Part shown: positions 3,453-24,000 of the stretch, piece by piece | Numbering within the stretch: the first letter of the stretch is position 1 | Layout: each line of letters begins with the position of its first letter | From: Bacillus sp. 2205SS5-2 | GTDB taxonomy: Bacteria; Bacillota; Bacilli; Bacillales; Bacillaceae_K | Direction of reading: 5' to 3' | NCBI RefSeq assembly: GCF_037024155.1 | Contig: NZ_JAYKTS010000002.1 | Location: forward strand, 182,373-206,372 | DNA length: 24,000 nt | Program-made: the position numbers and the translations under genes | The notes under the pieces: model-generated | Seen by the model: only the letters and a program-made list of their open reading frames with translations | Databases searched by the model: none | Told to the model about the DNA's origin: nothing

Positions 3453-3635
3453 GGAAAAGCTCATTTCGTATACATTTTGGCTCTTTAGTCTAATTTTAGA
3501 TGGAATCCTCCAATTTGCAGTTGATACCCATCAAAGATAGACGAAAAGGTACCCGGAAACGAAGCGATATCACCGTTTATAGACTGAATCGAAGAACAAA
3601 ATCTTTGCGAAAACAGCCTTAGGAAAAAAGTGGAA
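3453..3635 (+). repeat. Contiguous copy of a ~185-bp A+C arm element (also present, split, at 17570-17660 plus 18020-18105)
   Basis: It aligns by eye with the phoH-pgpH gap. Left-side matches are AAAGCTCATTTCGTATACAT vs AAGGCTCTTTTCGCATACAT and TTGATACCCATCAAAGATAGACG vs TTGATTCCCATTAAAAATAGACG. Right-side matches are CCCGGAAACGAAGCGATATCACCGTTTATAGACTG vs CCCGAAACAAAGCTATATCACCGTTTATATACTG and CGAAAACAGCCTTAGGAAAAAAGTG vs CGAAAACAGCCTTTTGAAAAAAAGTG. The two ends are imperfect inverted repeats. Confidence 0.8.
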
Positions 3636-3656
3636 GAGGTAGTCACTTCAGCAGGG

Positions 3657-3899
3657 AGTCTTATCAAGCTGCAGTGGCTAAGGACTCGGGCATTTGTCAG
3701 CCCACTGCGTGAATCAAGATTCACTACGTGTTCTGCCAGATGCCTACCGTCCTAAAACAGCCACTTTCGCTTTTAGTCTTATCAAGCTGCAGTGGCTAAG
3801 GACTCGGGCATTTGTCAGCCCACTGCGTGAATCAAGATTCACTACGTGTTCTGTCAGATGCCTACCGTCCTAAAACAGCCACTTTCGCTTTTAGTCTTG
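3657..3899 (+). repeat. Tandem hairpin modules: 2 x 118 bp (3657-3774, 3775-3892) plus a 7-bp start of a third
   Basis: This is a direct head-to-tail repeat, 117/118 identical; the only difference is C3736 vs T3854. Each unit is an imperfect long hairpin closed by GCAGTGGCT...AGCCACT. A degenerate module tail (AGTCACTTCAGCAGGG, 3641-3656) precedes the array. Confidence 0.95.
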
Positions 3900-6827: not shown

Positions 6828-8183
6828 ATGCCGACTGTCGCTTTTCACACACTAGGCTGTAAAGTAAACCATTATGAAACTGAAGCGATTTGGCAGTTGT
6901 TTAAAGAAAATCAATATGATCGTGTTGATTTCGAAAAATCTTCAGATGTATACGTGATTAATACATGTACTGTTACGAATACTGGAGACAAAAAAAGCCG
7001 TCAAGTTATTCGTCGTGCGATTCGTAAGAATCCTGATGCGGTTATTTGTGTAACCGGCTGTTATGCCCAAACATCACCTGCCGAAATTATGGCGATTCCT
7101 GGTGTAGATATCGTCGTGGGTACACAAGATCGTCAGAAAATGTTAGCTTATATTGAACAATTTAAACAAGAACGAGAACCTATTAATGCGGTGAAAAACA
7201 TCATGAAGAATCGTGTGTATGAAGAGCTTGATGTTCCTGCATTCACTGACCGAACTAGAGCCTCTTTGAAAATCCAAGAAGGTTGCAACAATTTTTGTAC
7301 GTTTTGTATTATCCCATGGGCTCGTGGCTTAATGCGTTCTCGTGATCCAGAGGAAGTCATTCATCAAGCTCAGCAACTTGTGGATGCAGGCTATAAAGAA
7401 ATTGTACTTACTGGCATTCATACAGGTGGGTATGGGGAAGATATGAAGGATTATAACCTTGCTATGCTTCTAACTGATTTAGAAAAACAAGTAAATGGGT
7501 TGAAGAGAATTCGGATTTCTTCCATTGAAGCAAGCCAATTAACAGATGAAGTAATTGATGTAATTGATCGCTCTAAGCTGGTCGTACGCCATTTACATAT
7601 CCCATTGCAATCAGGTTCCAATACGGTGTTAAAACGTATGAGGAGAAAGTATACTATGGAATTCTTTGGTGAGCGCTTAGAAAAGTTAAAGAAAGCTCTA
7701 CCTGGTCTTGCGGTTACATCGGACGTTATCGTCGGTTTTCCTGGTGAAACAGAAGAAGAGTTCATGGAAACCTATGATTTTATAAAAAAACATCAATTTT
7801 CCGAACTTCATGTATTCCCTTACTCCAAACGTACCGGAACTCCTGCGGCAAGAATGGATGATCAAGTGGATGAAGAAATTAAAAATAAACGGGTACATGA
7901 ACTGATTGCCCTATCAAATCAGTTGGCGAAAGAGTATTGTTCTCTTTTTGAGGGAGAGGTTCTCGAAGTCATTCCTGAAGAAAAATTCAAAGGCGATGCA
8001 GAAAGTGGTTTATTTGAAGGATATTCAGATAACTACCTCAAAGTTGTATTTCCTGCAACCGAAGACATGGTTGGAAAGCTTGTAAAAGTTAAAATAACCA
8101 AAGCCGGCTATCCCTACAATGAAGGACAGTTTGTTCGCGTGTTAGAGGAAGATGAAAAGGAAGTACAAAAAGCGGTTATTTAA
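6828..8183 (+). CDS. mtaB: tRNA methylthiotransferase MtaB (YqeV), radical-SAM MTTase
   Basis: The 451-aa product has an N-terminal MTTase domain (FHTLGCKVNHYE), a radical-SAM CxxxCxxC motif (CNNFCTFC) and a C-terminal TRAM-like segment. It is the last gene of the heptacistronic dnaK operon arrangement known from B. subtilis. Confidence 0.9.
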   Translation: MPTVAFHTLGCKVNHYETEAIWQLFKENQYDRVDFEKSSDVYVINTCTVTNTGDKKSRQVIRRAIRKNPDAVICVTGCYAQTSPAEIMAIPGVDIVVGTQDRQKMLAYIEQFKQEREPINAVKNIMKNRVYEELDVPAFTDRTRASLKIQEGCNNFCTFCIIPWARGLMRSRDPEEVIHQAQQLVDAGYKEIVLTGIHTGGYGEDMKDYNLAMLLTDLEKQVNGLKRIRISSIEASQLTDEVIDVIDRSKLVVRHLHIPLQSGSNTVLKRMRRKYTMEFFGERLEKLKKALPGLAVTSDVIVGFPGETEEEFMETYDFIKKHQFSELHVFPYSKRTGTPAARMDDQVDEEIKNKRVHELIALSNQLAKEYCSLFEGEVLEVIPEEKFKGDAESGLFEGYSDNYLKVVFPATEDMVGKLVKVKITKAGYPYNEGQFVRVLEEDEKEVQKAVI

Positions 8184-8217: not shown

Positions 8218-8398
8218 GATTCAGTTAGCAAATGTGATTTTTAAAATGGTGGAAGTCTAGGTACTGACACCTTGCTCATTTCTTAGCTATCGTGTTTGAG
8301 AATCATAAAAAGGGTAACAATAAGGTAGAACTCGTCTTTTCGACGAGAATTTGTTATGATGAAGAGGTACATACAACTGAGTGAAAGGAGAGAAAAAT

Positions 8399-10956: not shown

Positions 10957-10996
10957 AAAGACTGAGTAACAGCCTAGCTGTCGCTCAGTTTTTTTA
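10955..10996. terminator. Bidirectional intrinsic terminator between yqeY and the convergent SRPBCC gene
   Basis: The stem pairs ACTGAGTAACAGC (10961-10973) with GCTGTCGCTCAGT (10977-10989). It is flanked by AAAAA upstream and TTTTTT downstream. The T-run overlaps the stop codon of the minus-strand gene. Confidence 0.75.
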
Positions 10997-11443
10997 TTTT
11001 TCAGCTATTCTTTTCAACTCTTTTGCGCGATTTACAATAAAACGCCTCATATATTTTTCTAAAAATAATTTATCAGCTATTTTCCCGAAAATTCCAAAAG
11101 GAGATTTATACGAAAAGATGTCTATCATAAAAGTTCCAGTACCACTTTCTATAAAGTCGTGTCTATGCGTGAAAGAGTGGAATGCTCCTTTAACCATACC
11201 ATCTGTAAAGGTGTACGGTTTTTCCATCGTGATGATCCTAGCTGTTAAATTTTGTTTAACTCCAAAATGGATGGCTTCCCAAGTGACTGTATCCCCCATT
11301 TCCATCAGTCCAGTTGTAACACCACAAATAGCTCTTTCTTTCGTTCTGGTTGTTGTTTCTGTATGTACTTCTACGTTTCTCGCAAGGTCAAAACAAACAG
11401 TGAGTGGTTTTTCAATATAAATCTGGTGCTTAATAATAGGCAA
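10994..11443 (-). CDS. SRPBCC (START/Bet v1-like, polyketide-cyclase-fold) family protein, function unknown
   Basis: The 149-aa ORF has an apparent TTG start (complement of CAA 11441-11443) preceded by AAAGGG. The pattern of beta-strand-like segments and a C-terminal helix, including the FTHRHDF motif, resembles small SRPBCC proteins. This is family-level recognition from memory only. Confidence 0.55.
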   Translation of the reverse strand: MPIIKHQIYIEKPLTVCFDLARNVEVHTETTTRTKERAICGVTTGLMEMGDTVTWEAIHFGVKQNLTARIITMEKPYTFTDGMVKGAFHSFTHRHDFIESGTGTFMIDIFSYKSPFGIFGKIADKLFLEKYMRRFIVNRAKELKRIAEK

Positions 11444-11914
11444 GTGCTATCTACCCTTTCATTGGTGTAGGTTTAAAGACGTATAAACGTAAATGATCAA
11501 AGGTATCTGTCATTTACTAAACGCATGAAGATAATAGGAACTCTTTAACATTTTGCATTGTATTTTCGTTTTTGCAGATACAAACAAAAAGAAGGCGAAC
11601 AAAGAAACGGTCAAGTACGTTTTAGCCATACCTATAAAATGTCTTTTTATTGTATCATACGAGAATGTATACCGTTAATATTTTGAGCATGATAGATGGG
11701 TTTGAAAAGTGTTTACCTTAAATTGAATCTATCATGTTCTATACTTATTTCTACTGCATATTTTTTTGGTACTCCAAGCATTCATAACAAGCAATATTTC
11801 TGATGAAAGTATTTGACCATTGATATTTTTCACCTTGGATATTACGACACGCACTTATATGCAACTTCTGAAACGATTACTCGTGTCGACTTCTGCTGGT
11901 GAGAATTACCTAGT

Positions 11915-12098
11915 CAGTCGGCATGTCTTATGCTGGTCGCCGATAAACGGACACCTTGCGCTTTTCTTATTGTCTAGCTCCAGGTGCCATCGGCTCGAGG
12001 TCATAAGACAATCCGCCCAAAAGGTCAAAGGGCGACCATTCAGCCGGCATGTCTTATGCTGGTCGCCGATAAACGGACACCTTGCGCTTTTCTTATTA
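11915..12098 (+). repeat. Diverged hairpin-module array: one complete 126-bp unit (11973-12098) preceded by the 58-bp 3' part of another (11915-11972)
   Basis: The 58-bp direct repeat TCAG(T/C)CGGCATGTCTTATGCTGGTCGCCGATAAACGGACACCTTGCGCTTTTCTTATT occurs at 11915-11972 and 12041-12098 with 1 mismatch. The unit boundaries AGCTCCAGGTGCC...GGACACCTTGCGCTTTTCTTATT resemble the AGCTGCAGTGGCT...AGCCACTTTCGCTTTTAGTCTTAT boundaries of the 3657-3899 modules. Confidence 0.85.
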
Positions 12099-12111
12099 GA
12101 ATAAAGATAGT

Positions 12112-16582: not shown

Positions 16583-17538
16583 CAGAAAAGTTAAAAACCA
16601 TCAATATCTCATTAGAAGACACAAATCAAGCTGTTGCTCTTTTTGGCACAGGTGATACCCATTTAAAAATTATTGAAGAAGCATTGCATGTCACTATCAC
16701 TTCTCGTGGAGGAGATATCTATGTTTCGGGTGATGAAAGTAATGTCAAAAATACAAACAAAGTACTTTCAACATTACTTAAAGTAATCAAAAAAGGCATC
16801 AACATCGGTCCTAGAGATGTGTTATATGCTACCCAACTCGTTAACCAGGGCATAGTAGAGTATATGGTGGATTTATATGAAGAAGAAATCACCAAAAATG
16901 CCAAAGGTCAAACCATTCGAGTGAAAACATTAGGCCAGCGCCATTATATTTCAGCCATTAAAAAGAGTGATTTGGTTTTTGGAATTGGACCAGCTGGGAC
17001 AGGAAAAACATATCTTGCCGTTGTCATGGCTATCCGTGCACTGAAAAATGGAGAAGTTAAGAAAATTATATTAACACGCCCAGCTGTTGAAGCAGGAGAG
17101 AGTCTAGGTTTTTTACCAGGTGATTTAAAGGAAAAAGTCGATCCGTATTTGCGTCCGTTATATGATGCCTTACATGATGTTTTAGGCGCAGAGCATACAG
17201 AAAGATTGATTGATAGAGGAACGATTGAAATAGCTCCTCTTGCCTATATGAGAGGCCGTACCCTAGATGATGCATTTGTAATTTTGGATGAAGCTCAGAA
17301 TACAACTAGTGCTCAAATGAAAATGTTTTTAACGCGCTTAGGATTTGGTTCAAAAATGGTCATTACTGGCGACCCTACTCAGTTTGATTTACCAAAAGGC
17401 GTTCAGTCCGGATTAGTTCAATCAACCACGATTTTAAAAGATGTAAAAGGGATTTCGATAATTGTATTAGAGCAAGGGGACGTAGTACGGCATCCACTAG
17501 TGGCGAAAGTTATTACGGCTTATCAAAATCAAGGATAA
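16579..17538 (+). CDS. phoH: PhoH-family ATPase (YqfE)
   Basis: The 319-aa product has Walker A GPAGTGKT, Walker B-like ILDEAQN and GDPTQ. Its ATG overlaps the yqfD stop (ATGA, 16579-16582). Confidence 0.95.
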   Translation: MTEKLKTINISLEDTNQAVALFGTGDTHLKIIEEALHVTITSRGGDIYVSGDESNVKNTNKVLSTLLKVIKKGINIGPRDVLYATQLVNQGIVEYMVDLYEEEITKNAKGQTIRVKTLGQRHYISAIKKSDLVFGIGPAGTGKTYLAVVMAIRALKNGEVKKIILTRPAVEAGESLGFLPGDLKEKVDPYLRPLYDALHDVLGAEHTERLIDRGTIEIAPLAYMRGRTLDDAFVILDEAQNTTSAQMKMFLTRLGFGSKMVITGDPTQFDLPKGVQSGLVQSTTILKDVKGISIIVLEQGDVVRHPLVAKVITAYQNQG

Positions 17539-17569
17539 CCTGAATATATTATTCAGGTTTTTCTTTTTG
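17537..17569 (+). terminator. Intrinsic terminator downstream of phoH
   Basis: AACCTGAAT (17537-17545) pairs with ATTCAGGTT (17551-17559) around a 5-nt loop, followed by TTTCTTTTT. Confidence 0.8.
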
Positions 17570-17660
17570 AAAGGCTCTTTTCGCATACATTGTGGCTATT
17601 TCATCTGGTTTTTGATTAAATCGCCCATTTCCATGTTGATTCCCATTAAAAATAGACGGA
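17570..17660 (+). repeat. Arm A of the A/C element (left half; homolog of 3453-~3547)
   Basis: See the alignment blocks listed for 3453-3635. It ends with AAAAATAGACGGA immediately before the first hairpin module. Confidence 0.8.
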
Positions 17661-18019
17661 TCTAGCTGCAGTGACTAGCAGCTATGGGACAAATGTTATC
17701 CAACTCCAAAGGTCAGGACCTTCTCCGTTGGATAACATTTGCCCGCCGCTGCTGGGCGAGCCACTTCCGCATTTCGTGATCCAGCTGCAGTGGCTAGGGA
17801 CTCGGGCATTTGTCAGCCCACTACGTGAAGCAGGCTTCACTGCGTGTACTGCCAGATGCCTGCCGTCCCAGGGCAGCCACTTCCGCATTTCTCTGATCCA
17901 GCTGCAGTGGCTTGCGGCTCGGGGTCAAATGAATAACCCTCCAGCGATGCAGGCATCACCTCCGAGTTCTTCATTTGCCTGACGCCGCAGGACAGCCACT
18001 TCCGCATTTCGTAAATGAT
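17661..18019 (+). repeat. Three contiguous hairpin modules (17661-17780, 17781-17897, 17898-~18019)
   Basis: Each unit opens with AGCTGCAGTG(A/G)CT and closes with AGCCACTTCCGCATTTC. The middle unit is a close relative of the 118-bp units at 3657-3892. The outer units have different but equally self-complementary interiors (for example GGGACAAATGTTATCCAAC with GTTGGATAACATTTGCCC, and GGTCAAATGAA with TTCATTTGCC). Confidence 0.9.
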
Positions 18020-18105
18020 GCCCGAAACAAAGCTATATCACCGTTTATATACTGGTGCGAACAGCAACAAACTTTACGAAAACAGCCTTTTGAAAAAAAG
18101 TGAAA
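18020..18105 (+). repeat. Arm C of the A/C element (right half; homolog of ~3552-3635)
   Basis: The sequence CCCGAAACAAAGCTATATCACCGTTTATATACTG...CTTTACGAAAACAGCCTTTTGAAAAAAAGTGAA matches 3552-3635 block for block. Confidence 0.8.
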
Positions 18106-18180
18106 TTTTCGAGGAAAACTGTTATGATTTTACATAATTAACGTTATTGTACCTATCATATAGGGATAGGAAGGAGACCT

Positions 18181-23116: not shown

Positions 23117-23884
23117 TTGCAACAGAAATGTGAAGGACTAGTGATTCGAACTAGTAATTATGGAGAATCAAATAAAGTAGTGACTGTTTTTTCAAGAGAA
23201 TTTGGTAAAGTTGCATTTATGGCTAGAGGAGCTAAAAAACCAAAAAGTCGTCTCTCAGCCGTTTCACAACCTTTTACTTATGGATATTTTTTATTTCAAA
23301 AAGGGAGTGGACTAGGAACTCTACAGCAAGGAGATATCATTTCAAGTATGAAAGGGATTAAAGGAGATCTATTTAAAACTTCTTATGTCACTTATATCTC
23401 AGAATTGCTAGATAAGGGAACCGATGATGCAAGGCCGAATCCGTTTTTGTTTCAGCTATATCTACAAATATTACAATATATAGATGAGGGTTATGATGCG
23501 GAAATTTTAACTCATATTTTTGAATTAAAGATGTTGCCTGTTTTAGGGTTGCATCCCACAATGAATGCTTGTGCTATTTGTGGGAATTCCGATGGATCAT
23601 TTGGTTTTTCGTTCAAAGAAAATGGGTTGATTTGCCATCGTTGTAAAGGTAACGATCCTCATCATTTCCCGCTATCTCAAAGTGCCGTAAAAATATTGCG
23701 GATTATGTATTTTTTCGATTTGAATCGAATGGGTAATATATCAGTGAAAGAAGAAACCAAGAATGAATTAACCACTTTGATTCGAAGTTATTATGACGAG
23801 GCTTCAGGGCTATATTTAAAATCAAGGAAGTTTTTAGATCAACTTCAATCCATTGAGGATTTAATCAAAAAAGACGAACCCTAG
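23117..23884 (+). CDS. recO: DNA repair/recombination mediator RecO
   Basis: The 255-aa product has a TTG start 4 nt after GGGAGGTGATGA, an N-terminal OB-fold region and the zinc motif CAICG...CHRC. Confidence 0.92.
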   Translation: MQQKCEGLVIRTSNYGESNKVVTVFSREFGKVAFMARGAKKPKSRLSAVSQPFTYGYFLFQKGSGLGTLQQGDIISSMKGIKGDLFKTSYVTYISELLDKGTDDARPNPFLFQLYLQILQYIDEGYDAEILTHIFELKMLPVLGLHPTMNACAICGNSDGSFGFSFKENGLICHRCKGNDPHHFPLSQSAVKILRIMYFFDLNRMGNISVKEETKNELTTLIRSYYDEASGLYLKSRKFLDQLQSIEDLIKKDEP

Positions 23885-23898
23885 GGTTCGTCTTTTTT
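23867..23898. terminator. Bidirectional intrinsic terminator overlapping the recO stop codon
   Basis: This is a perfect 15-bp palindrome: AAAAAAGACGAACCC (23867-23881) pairs with GGGTTCGTCTTTTTT (23884-23898). Confidence 0.85.
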
Positions 23899-23960
23899 GA
23901 AGTGTATAGAAAGAGTTAATCTTCAATTTGGGAAACTATTTTAACTAAGTCAAAATTGAC

Positions 23961-24000
23961 ATTCGTAATCCAGCTGCAGTGGCTCTGAGGCTCGGGCAAA
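23961..24000 (+). repeat. 5' part of a further hairpin module, truncated by the window edge
   Basis: ATTCGTAATCCAGCTGCAGTGGCTCTGAGGCTCGGGCAAA matches the inter-module junction consensus CATTTCGTGATCCAGCTGCAGTGGCT-n6-CTCGGG seen at 17770-17810. Confidence 0.8.

What the first reader, a model, noticed from the sequence alone, without database searches (positions are those of the whole stretch)
17781..17897. Compensatory substitutions between module copies preserve a long hairpin, and wobble pairs favour the plus-strand RNA
I compared module 17781-17897 with the units at 3657-3774, and with the other modules. The closing helix GCAGTGGCT with AGCCACT is constant. The next helix changes as matched pairs: AAGGAC with GTCCT (3681-3686 / 3750-3754), AGGGAC with GTCCC (17781 unit), TGCGGC with GCCGCA (17898 unit), AGCAGC with GCTGCT (17661 unit), and ATCGGC with GCCGAT (11973 unit). 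The apical helix also co-varies: GTGAATC-AA-GATTCAC becomes GTGAAGC-AG-GCTTCAC. An opposed G/A pair in the internal loop (CACTGCGTG...CACTACGTG) is swapped to A/G (CACTACGTG...CACTGCGTG). The central helix GGGCATTTG with CAGATGCCT contains G-T and T-G pairs, which would be G-U wobbles in plus-strand RNA but A-C mismatches on the other strand. Five different sequences at the same helix position is the classic signature of selection on structure, not sequence.
Basis: seen in the sequence. Interest (0 to 1): 0.7.

Follow-up and report, generated by a model that had tools for sequence, protein, structure and literature searches.

The report
Hairpin repeat family in Bacillaceae chromosomes
The flagged 117-base module is one copy of a widespread, apparently undescribed intergenic repeat of Bacillaceae whose long hairpin is kept intact by matched changes on both arms, but the evidence points to a DNA-level repeat element rather than a plus-strand RNA.

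Summary
Window 17779-17894 is one of six complete 116-125-nt imperfect-palindrome units, plus four relics or cut copies. They lie in five intergenic gaps of a Bacillus sp. 2205SS5-2 chromosome segment.

Each unit folds into one long hairpin. In the six window copies, 22 of 37 pairs change on both sides and stay paired. In 140 distinct copies from other Bacillaceae, 30 of 31 pairs do so (93.7% paired against 66.9% in shuffles). The unit ends, two fixed mismatches, an internal loop and a bulge are nearly invariant.

The plus-strand-RNA reading is not supported:
- Wobble pairs are as rare as any other mismatch on both strands.
- The opposite strand folds better in 127/137 copies with RNA parameters and 135/137 with DNA parameters, whatever the direction of the neighbouring genes.
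- About a third of copies are antisense to the upstream gene.
- The focal array lies between a terminator and a promoter.

No Rfam family, phage, plasmid or paper matches. Syntenic regions of B. spongiae and C. firmus lack the units.

Best reading: a REP/BIME- or BOX-like structured DNA repeat kept as a Watson-Crick hairpin. It builds head-to-tail arrays, sits next to terminators and nests in relatives. The enzyme is unknown.

The parts
17779..17894 (+). Focal unit: one long imperfect hairpin. Helices: base 17784-17795 / 17875-17886 (two fixed mismatches); second 17797-17801 / 17865-17869; central 17803-17812 / 17853-17862; 17814-17816 / 17849-17851; 17819-17821 / 17844-17846; apical 17825-17830 / 17835-17840.
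   Evidence: Covariance-model hit of 88 bits, E = 4e-22. MFE -49.9 kcal/mol on plus and -50.2 on minus.
17659..17778 (+). First unit of the three-unit array. Its interior is a different subtype (AGCAGC/GCTGCT), and its closing helix has an A.C mismatch.
   Evidence: 97 bits.
17895..18013 (+). Third unit of the array, subtype TGCGGC/GCCGCA.
   Evidence: 101 bits.
3662..3778 (+). First of two 99%-identical units between dnaK and dnaJ. Same interior subtype as the focal unit, with three compensated differences.
   Evidence: 92.5 bits.
3780..3896 (+). Second unit of the dnaK-dnaJ pair.
   Evidence: 93 bits.
11971..12095 (+). Unit of the ATCGGC/GCCGAT subtype with co-varying closing helix CAGGTGCC/GGACACCT. 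About 78% identical (hand estimate) to units in Bacillus marasmi (L030).
   Evidence: 121 bits.
11905..11969 (+). 5'-truncated unit (3' half only) that heads the 11971 array.
   Evidence: Direct repeat D6, 98% identical to 12040-12097. Weak covariance-model hit at 11875-11969.
3641..3656 (+). Degenerate relic of a unit 3' end (AGTCACTTCAGCAGGG) just before the 3662 array.
   Evidence: Pattern matches. The same arrangement occurs in about a third of arrays elsewhere.
8246..8285 (+). Solo relic of a unit 3' end (GACACCTTGCTCATTTCTTA), about 25 nt after the mtaB terminator.
   Evidence: Repeat D4; sequence; weak model hit.
23962..24000 (+). 5' part of a further unit, cut by the window end, about 60 nt after the recO terminator (23865-23900).
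   Evidence: D3, 96%.
17537..17575 (+). Context: intrinsic terminator of phoH, upstream of the focal array.
   Evidence: Conserved in B. spongiae.
18100..18128 (+). Context: promoter-like site (GTGAAA-17-TATGAT with TG) of the downstream 7TM-HD gene. It is conserved in B. spongiae, so the array lies between a terminator and a promoter.

Best explanation
The module is a copy of a chromosomal, non-coding, structured repeat family of Bacillaceae. It is comparable in kind to REP/BIME, BOX or bcr1 elements.

Unit architecture (about 115-125 nt, one long imperfect palindrome):
- Nearly invariant ends: 5' TGTCYAGCTGCAG and 3' CTTCCGCTTTTC.
- Two fixed mismatches in the basal helix.
- A fixed internal loop (CTCG opposite TGTCG).
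- A fixed 5-nt bulge on the 3' arm.
- An A-rich apical loop.
- Helices between these landmarks may have any sequence as long as the two arms are Watson-Crick complementary.

Shown:
- The architecture above.
- Near-saturated Watson-Crick-only covariation.
- Arrays are uniform in orientation and made of unlike units joined head to tail.
- Unit number changes at an orthologous locus.
- 5'-truncated relics, nesting in the apex of longer relatives, and frequent adjacency to terminator hairpins.
- Absence from syntenic regions of related species.

Inferred:
- The constraint acts on DNA, as a hairpin or cruciform in single-stranded or supercoiled DNA. It does not act on a particular transcript.
- The invariant ends, loops and bulge are what a protein recognises. 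The helices only have to pair.
- Copies spread or are maintained by an unidentified structure-specific recombinase or transposase, or by a host process.
- New units are added next to the 3' end of a resident unit, next to a terminator-like hairpin plus T-run, or into hairpin loops.
- Arrays then grow and shrink by unequal exchange.
For: Structure and covariation.

Wobble pairs are no commoner than other mismatches on either strand.

Fold stability and the strand asymmetry are independent of the direction of flanking genes. The same asymmetry appears with DNA parameters.

The focal array lies between a terminator and a promoter.

The family is intergenic and occurs in both orientations, about 2:1.
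- No array has mixed orientation.
- Two units in opposite orientation sit inside one bkd operon.

The units in the window are lineage-specific.
- There are 0 units in the syntenic 21 kb of B. spongiae.
- There are 0 units in the same region of nine C. firmus strains.

Arrays are dynamic. At one orthologous locus the order is B-A in one species and relicB-A-B in another.

There is constraint in situ.
- Orthologous units are about 98% identical while the non-coding flank is about 87%.
- One compensated A-T to G-C change separates orthologues whose flanks are 95% identical.
- Stems change about 2.5 times more slowly than unpaired sites. At 90-95% identity there are 16 compensated doubles (about 0.3 expected by chance, my estimate from the per-site rate) against 29 singles.

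Relics, terminator adjacency and nesting.

The family appears chromosome-only and uncatalogued. No true copy was found in IMG/VR, phage or plasmid collections and no Rfam family matches.
Against: - No mobilising enzyme was found. Genes next to oppositely oriented units are housekeeping genes.
- No target-site duplication and no clean empty site were obtained. Mobility is therefore inferred from patchy distribution, not shown.
- The plus strand is preferentially the sense strand of the upstream gene (48:27) and the G-rich strand (51:19). This would also fit a plus-strand transcript function such as termination.
- Conservation of units above the flanks could mean a host function rather than selfish maintenance.
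- G.T is also fairly stable in DNA hairpins, so the lack of wobble argues for pairing on both strands. It does not argue strictly for DNA.
Confidence: 0.5

Rival explanations
1. The unit is a cis-acting RNA hairpin in read-through or operon transcripts. It would act as an intrinsic-terminator-like element, a barrier to exonucleases or a processing site, mainly in the plus orientation (long hairpin followed by UUUUC).
For: - On the plus strand the hairpin is followed by TTTTC(T).
- The upstream gene is co-oriented in 48 of 75 arrays, while the downstream gene shows no bias (40:42).
- Convergent gene pairs (14) outnumber divergent ones (8).
- Some units fill spacers inside operons.
- Units are more conserved than their flanks.
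Against: - About a third of copies are antisense to the upstream gene.
- Pairing and stability are identical in both orientation classes.
- There is no excess of G.U on the plus strand, and the minus strand folds better.
- Four of the window's sites already follow a genuine terminator.
- The basal helix next to the T-run has two fixed mismatches, and the T-run is only four bases.
Confidence: 0.25
2. The matched changes need no selection. Hairpins formed in single-stranded DNA during replication are homogenised by template switching (quasi-palindrome correction) or by mismatch repair between the arms. A mutation on one arm is then either reverted or copied to the other arm.
For: - Covariation is Watson-Crick only, with almost no one-sided intermediates.
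- Compensated doubles are in excess even among copies more than 90% identical.
- The plus strand lies on the G-rich strand (used here as a proxy for the lagging-strand template) in 51 of 70 arrays.
- The mismatches that persist on the plus strand are mostly pyrimidine-pyrimidine. From general knowledge, these are poorly recognised by MutS.
Against: - The two basal mismatches, the internal loop, the 5-nt bulge and an A.C position are kept in more than 90% of copies across genera. A pure drive towards perfect palindromes would erase them.
- Unit sequences are conserved above their flanks, and stems evolve more slowly than loops. Both indicate constraint.
Confidence: 0.12
3. One reading: each module is a gene or domain for a structured plus-strand non-coding RNA selected for its fold.
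For: - Strong covariation.
- Two G.U pairs in the central helix of three window units.
- A mild orientation bias towards the sense strand.
Against: - No conserved promoter or terminator flanks the units. Conservation stops at the unit ends.
- No Rfam match.
- Wobble pairs are not enriched, and the minus strand is more stable.
- The focal array is outside any obvious transcription unit.
- Many copies are chimeric or truncated.
Confidence: 0.05

Closest known systems
REP / BIME elements of Enterobacteria and Pseudomonas
   Same: - Extragenic, chromosome-only imperfect palindromes clustered in arrays.
- Strand-asymmetric mismatches.
- No terminal inverted repeats beyond the hairpin and no target duplication.
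- Found after operon ends.
   Different: - REPs are 20-40 bp (PMC3733652), whereas these units are 115-125 nt.
- BIMEs alternate orientation, whereas these arrays are strictly head to tail.
- REP copies are alike in sequence, whereas here the helices are hypervariable.
- No RAYT partner is known for this family.
Pneumococcal BOX elements (boxA-boxB(n)-boxC)
   Same: - Firmicute intergenic repeats that are modular, variable in module number and highly structured.
- They nest in one another.
- They are over-represented after genes, with about 60% on the leading strand (PMC3049150).
   Different: - No sequence similarity.
- BOX has terminal inverted repeats and target duplications (PMC3049150); none is seen here.
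- BOX modules are conserved in sequence rather than co-varying.
bcr1 of the Bacillus cereus group
   Same: A Bacillus intergenic repeat of about 155 bp. Compensatory changes keep a predicted structure, and the distribution is not conserved between strains (PMC3184786).
   Different: - bcr1 is specific to the B. cereus group.
- It has 5-bp direct repeats and two independent stem-loops (PMC3184786).
- The present family has one long hairpin and no duplication, and it occurs in other genera.
SPRITE (pneumococcal rho-independent-terminator-like element)
   Same: A hairpin of about 105 nt followed by a T-rich tract. It lies close to gene 3' ends, and no target duplication has been established (PMC3049150).
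   Different: - SPRITE is AT-rich with a single 18-bp duplex and a long U-rich tail.
- Here the hairpin has eight helical segments, 45-66% G+C and only four T.
- Arrays and nesting are the rule here.
Integron attC sites
   Same: - Similar size range (attC is 57-141 bp, from general knowledge).
- Structure is conserved while sequence is free.
- Fixed unpaired bases give strand asymmetry.
- They are recognised as folded single strands.
   Different: - No RYYYAAC/GTTRRRY core sites.
- No cassettes between units.
- No integrase nearby.
- From general knowledge, integrons are essentially unknown in Bacillota.

Membership tests
REP/BIME | Short (20-40 bp) imperfect palindrome | tested here: not met
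   Units are 116-125 nt with eight helical segments.
REP/BIME | Extragenic, many copies per chromosome | tested here: met
   Five intergenic sites within 24 kb of the window. 157 hits in 95 loci, essentially all outside long ORFs.
REP/BIME | Clusters with alternating orientation of palindromic units | tested here: not met
   All 105 arrays are uniform in orientation and head to tail.
REP/BIME | GTAG or CGTC tag at one end and a RAYT gene flanked by copies | tested here: inconclusive
   The 5' end is TGTC in most copies and CGTC in a minority. No RAYT-like gene is present in the loci held, and whole genomes could not be scanned.
MITE | Target-site duplication flanking each copy | tested here: not met
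   The 3-8 nt on either side of 49 arrays without an upstream relic show no duplication.
MITE | Terminal inverted repeats shared with an autonomous IS | tested here: inconclusive
   The ends are complementary only as the base of the hairpin, with two mismatches (GCTGCAG/CTTCCGC). No IS with these ends was seen. The search was limited to about 0.9 Mb of loci.
Rfam structured RNA families | Match to a curated covariance model | tested here: not met
   No hit at gathering threshold in the window. Nothing relevant at E <= 10 over the array or at E <= 0.1 over consensus-type units.
Integron attC | R''/R' core sites (RYYYAAC ... GTTRRRY) and gene cassettes between sites | tested here: not met
   The invariant ends are TGTCYAGCTGCAG and CTTCCGCTTTTC. 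Units abut directly with 0-8 nt between them.
CRISPR array | Short identical repeats separated by unique spacers, with cas genes or a leader | tested here: not met
   The 'spacers' are themselves hairpins belonging to recurrent subtypes shared between genera. Arrays are 1-5 units long and scattered among housekeeping genes.
Intrinsic terminator / SPRITE-like | Stable stem immediately followed by a U-rich tract, placed at the 3' ends of co-oriented genes | tested here: inconclusive
   A TTTTC tail follows the hairpin on plus, and the upstream gene is co-oriented 48:27. However, the consensus scan does not call the units as terminators, and about a third are in the wrong orientation.

The most novel reading that the evidence does not exclude
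The units are the substrates of an undiscovered single-stranded-DNA recombination or transposition system of Bacillaceae.
- The system would recognise a folded hairpin by its fixed mismatches, loop and bulge. This resembles how integron integrases recognise attC sites, or how IS200/IS605 transposases recognise their ends.
- The helices would be sequence-free or would act as identity codes.
- This would explain insertion next to hairpins and into hairpin loops, the head-to-tail arrays of unlike units, the lack of target duplications and the bias to the G-rich strand.
Probability: 0.2. Interest if true: 0.8.

Novelty: new variant of a known kind. Interest (0 to 1): 0.55.

Why it matters
If the reading is right, several genera of Bacillaceae carry tens to hundreds of copies of a large structured repeat. 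It is absent from Rfam and from the literature I could search.

Its covariation is nearly saturated and purely Watson-Crick, which makes it unusual among bacterial repeats. It offers a clean natural system for asking how hairpin complementarity is maintained in DNA: by selection, by arm-to-arm correction, or by a structure-specific enzyme.

There are practical consequences too:
- The units create spurious ORFs, for example 17671-17982.
- They change intergenic spacing between terminators and promoters.
- They split other elements.
- They will mislead searches for non-coding RNAs that rely on covariation alone.

Tried and rejected
Database and literature searches that found nothing:
- Rfam at gathering and permissive thresholds, on the window and on consensus-type units: no family.
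- IMG/VR pattern scan: 12 hits, all chance matches in coding-like sequence.
- blastn of a two-unit array against 72,556 plasmids and 50,697 phages: no match.
- Full-text searches for nine diagnostic strings and for keyword sets: nothing relevant.

The genome contigs pattern scan was mostly chance hits outside Bacillaceae. Only about 16 loci were real.

Attempts to find a partner enzyme:
- Genes between oppositely oriented units in L177 and L034 are bkd and acyl-CoA dehydrogenase genes.
- The 149-aa ORF in the expanded spacer at 10994-11443 has no Pfam match and does not look like a transposase.
- ORFs lying over the arrays have no Pfam match.

Other negative results:
- Target-site duplication: none.
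- Precise empty sites from B. spongiae: the spacers are too diverged, except that the phoH spacer shows a block insertion of about 510 nt.
- Exact-protein look-ups of the window's DnaK and PhoH failed. The source was identified through a homology search instead.

My first crude orientation count (94:78) understated a real bias. It was replaced.

CRISPR-like, attC-like, type III antitoxin-array and riboswitch readings were considered and dropped. There are no associated genes or defining motifs.

Full report
**What is there**

The window is a chromosome segment running from hrcA/grpE/dnaK through phoH and era to recO, with nearly all long ORFs on the + strand. Its PhoH is 100% identical to that of Bacillus sp. 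2205SS5-2. The next relative is B. spongiae at 84%.

Tandem Repeats Finder, repeat finding and pattern searches show units of about 118 nt in several intergenic gaps. A covariance model built from 26 units finds six complete units in the window, all on the + strand:
- 3662-3778 and 3780-3896
- 11971-12095
- 17659-17778, 17779-17894 (the finding) and 17895-18013

There are also partial copies:
- a 5'-truncated unit at 11905-11969
- end relics at 3641-3656 and 8246-8285
- a unit cut by the window end at 23962

**Check of the observation**

Two coordinates are one base off. The closing helix is not strictly constant, because the 17659 unit has an A.C mismatch and the 11971 unit has a co-varying variant.

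Each unit folds into a single long hairpin, with z-scores from -2.7 to -6.1 on the plus strand. On the six window units RNAalifold predicts 37 pairs, and 22 of them have double changes that keep the pair.

Comparing the focal unit with 3662-3778, the three differences in stems are all matched. Two are compensated Watson-Crick pairs and one is the swapped G/A mismatch. No stem difference is unmatched, while about nine differences fall in unpaired positions (read).

**The family**

A pattern scan of one genome per species found real copies in these taxa, among many chance hits:
- Cytobacillus gottheilii and C. purgationiresistens
- Mesobacillus maritimus
- Fictibacillus nanhaiensis
- Bacillus mesophilum and B. 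marasmi
- Pseudoneobacillus and Ureibacillus
- one Enterococcus sp.

A metagenome scan gave 97 matching stretches, of which 80 loci were returned. The model finds 157 units in 95 loci.

On 140 distinct units:
- 93.7% of cells are standard pairs, against 66.9% in shuffles and 35-55% with slid partners.
- 30 of 31 pairs have changes on both sides.
- 0 of 500 shuffles reach any measure.

An independent MAFFT alignment gives the same picture, with 26 of 31 pairs compensated.

Against this variability, some positions are more than 90% invariant:
- the 5' end T-C-Y-A-G-C-T-G-C-A-G
- the 3' end C-T-T-C-C-G-C-T-T-T-T-C
- two mismatches in the basal helix (T.C and C.T on plus)
- an internal loop (CTCG opposite TGTCG)
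- a 5-nt bulge on the 3' arm
- AAA in the apical loop

Some units are chimeras with broken pairing, for example L019a and L019c.

**Which strand, and RNA or DNA**

In the 31 consensus pairs there are 3862 Watson-Crick cells, 50 G.T, 74 A.C and 189 other mismatches. This is essentially the 1:1:4 ratio expected if wobble had no privilege on either strand.

Whole-unit folds favour the minus strand:
- all five window units folded on both strands
- 127 of 137 units, by 5.9 kcal/mol, with RNA parameters
- 135 of 137 units, by 5.6 kcal/mol, with DNA parameters

The cause is the fixed purine-purine and G.T oppositions that the minus strand gets where the plus strand has pyrimidine-pyrimidine and A.C. 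The asymmetry and the fold energies are the same whether the flanking genes run with or against the unit. They are therefore properties of the element, not of the transcript it happens to sit in.

**Orientation and position**

No array mixes orientations. Sizes are 1 to 5 units, and 71 of 105 arrays are single units.

A first crude count gave 94 same against 78 opposite flanking ORFs. With stricter ORF calls and de-duplicated arrays:
- the upstream gene is co-oriented 48:27
- the downstream gene is co-oriented 40:42
- the coding majority of the locus is co-oriented 47:23

The unit plus strand is the G-rich strand in 51 of 70 arrays (p about 2e-4). So there is a bias of two to three to one for plus being the leading or sense strand, much like the coding bias itself. 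About a third of copies point the other way. Two units in opposite orientation fill spacers of one bkd operon.

The focal array lies after the phoH terminator (17537-17575) and before a promoter-like site that is conserved in B. spongiae. The recO, mtaB and dnaK sites also follow terminators.

**Dynamics**

The syntenic 21 kb of B. spongiae and of nine C. firmus strains contain no unit. The phoH spacer is 120 nt in B. spongiae and 643 nt here.

At an orthologous locus, C. gottheilii has units B-A and B. mesophilum has relicB-A-B. The units are about 98% identical, while the adjacent non-coding flank is about 87% identical.

Between two metagenome orthologues with flanks 95% identical, the unit shows one compensated A-T to G-C change and one A.C mismatch. 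Two species carry a unit at the same point of the same bkd spacer, but the interiors are mostly different.

Along a minimum spanning tree of units, stems change about 2.5 times more slowly than unpaired sites. Compensated doubles are far above chance: at 90-95% identity there are 16, against roughly 0.3 expected by my estimate from the per-site rate, alongside 29 singles.

Of 87 distinct 5' flanks:
- about a third are 5'-truncated relics of another unit
- about a dozen abut an intrinsic-terminator hairpin plus T-run
- about twenty are the apex of longer hairpin repeats with the same kind of ends, so units nest within relatives

No target-site duplication is visible.

**What it is not**

- There is no Rfam family.
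- The ORFs over the arrays have no Pfam domain.
- There are no copies in phage, plasmid or viral collections.
- There are no cas, integrase or transposase genes nearby.
- No paper in the library prints its diagnostic strings or describes such a family.

The closest described things are REP/BIME, BOX, SPRITE and bcr1 (PMC3184786, PMC3049150, PMC3733652). Each shares some traits and fails on others, as set out in the membership table.

**Most likely mechanism**

I read the units as a structured DNA repeat.
- The fixed ends, mismatches, loop and bulge are the recognised features.
- The helices only have to be complementary.
- The constraint is on Watson-Crick pairing, which serves both strands. 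That fits a hairpin or cruciform in DNA better than one transcript.
- Arrays of unlike units, relics, nesting and terminator adjacency suggest addition next to or into existing hairpins, followed by unequal exchange.

The steps from 'structure is constrained' to 'DNA-level' and to 'mobile' are inferences. No enzyme, empty site or de novo insertion was seen.

The main rival is a cis-acting RNA hairpin, terminator-like in the plus orientation. It is helped by the upstream-gene bias and hurt by the orientation-independent maintenance. A neutral arm-to-arm correction process could produce the Watson-Crick-only doubles, but it does not explain the invariant imperfections.

**Verdict**

The strand and RNA inference is not supported. 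The family looks like an undescribed variant of the known class of bacterial structured intergenic repeats.

Noticed in passing
window 3455-3629; window 17570-17658 plus 18011-18096: There is a second repeat, 'X', of about 175-190 nt with terminal inverted repeats (AAAGGCTNTTTTCG / CGAAAACAGCCTTT). One copy is intact right after the dnaK terminator. The other is split by the three-unit hairpin array, inserted at ATAGACG^. X is absent from the B. spongiae spacer and from all other loci fetched.
   Followed up: partly
L207 11645-13078 (Cytobacillus firmus): A group II intron reverse transcriptase (RVT_1 plus GIIM) is inserted in the phoH-downstream spacer of one C. firmus strain and is absent from the eight other strains. 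I did not check its position relative to the phoH terminator.
   Followed up: no
L161 1133-1477; L158 1834-2227: Units sit at the apex of longer hairpin repeats that carry the same kind of ends (TGTCTAGCTACGGCGCC...GGCGCCTTCGCATTTC, and GCTCCAGGCGC...GCGCCTTCCGC of about 270 nt). This points to a superfamily of nested palindromes.
   Followed up: partly
L157 about 875-915; L113 about 7720-7760: Perfect mini-palindromes made of a unit 3' end and its exact complement (AAAAGCGGAAGCGC-ATA-GGCGCTTCCGCTTTT) sit just upstream of full units. They look like bidirectional terminators or footprints.
   Followed up: no
window 10994-11443 (- strand): A 149-aa ORF with no Pfam match lies in the yqeY-nfeD spacer. 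That spacer is 226 nt in B. spongiae and about 1300 nt here.
   Followed up: partly
window 17671-17982 and 11820-12104 (+ strand): ORFs of 103 and 94 aa run through the hairpin arrays and have no Pfam match. They are likely artefacts that gene callers could annotate as hypothetical proteins.
   Followed up: yes
L058 6126-6370 (Enterococcus sp. PF1-24): Two units with the family's ends occur in an Enterococcus genome, outside Bacillaceae. This hints at horizontal spread.
   Followed up: no
relics in L003, L111, L114, L125 and L139, upstream of arrays: Many 5'-truncated relics begin at or near the conserved internal-loop TTGTCG. This shares TGTC with the unit's 5' end (TGTCYAG) and may be a preferred breakpoint.
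   Followed up: no
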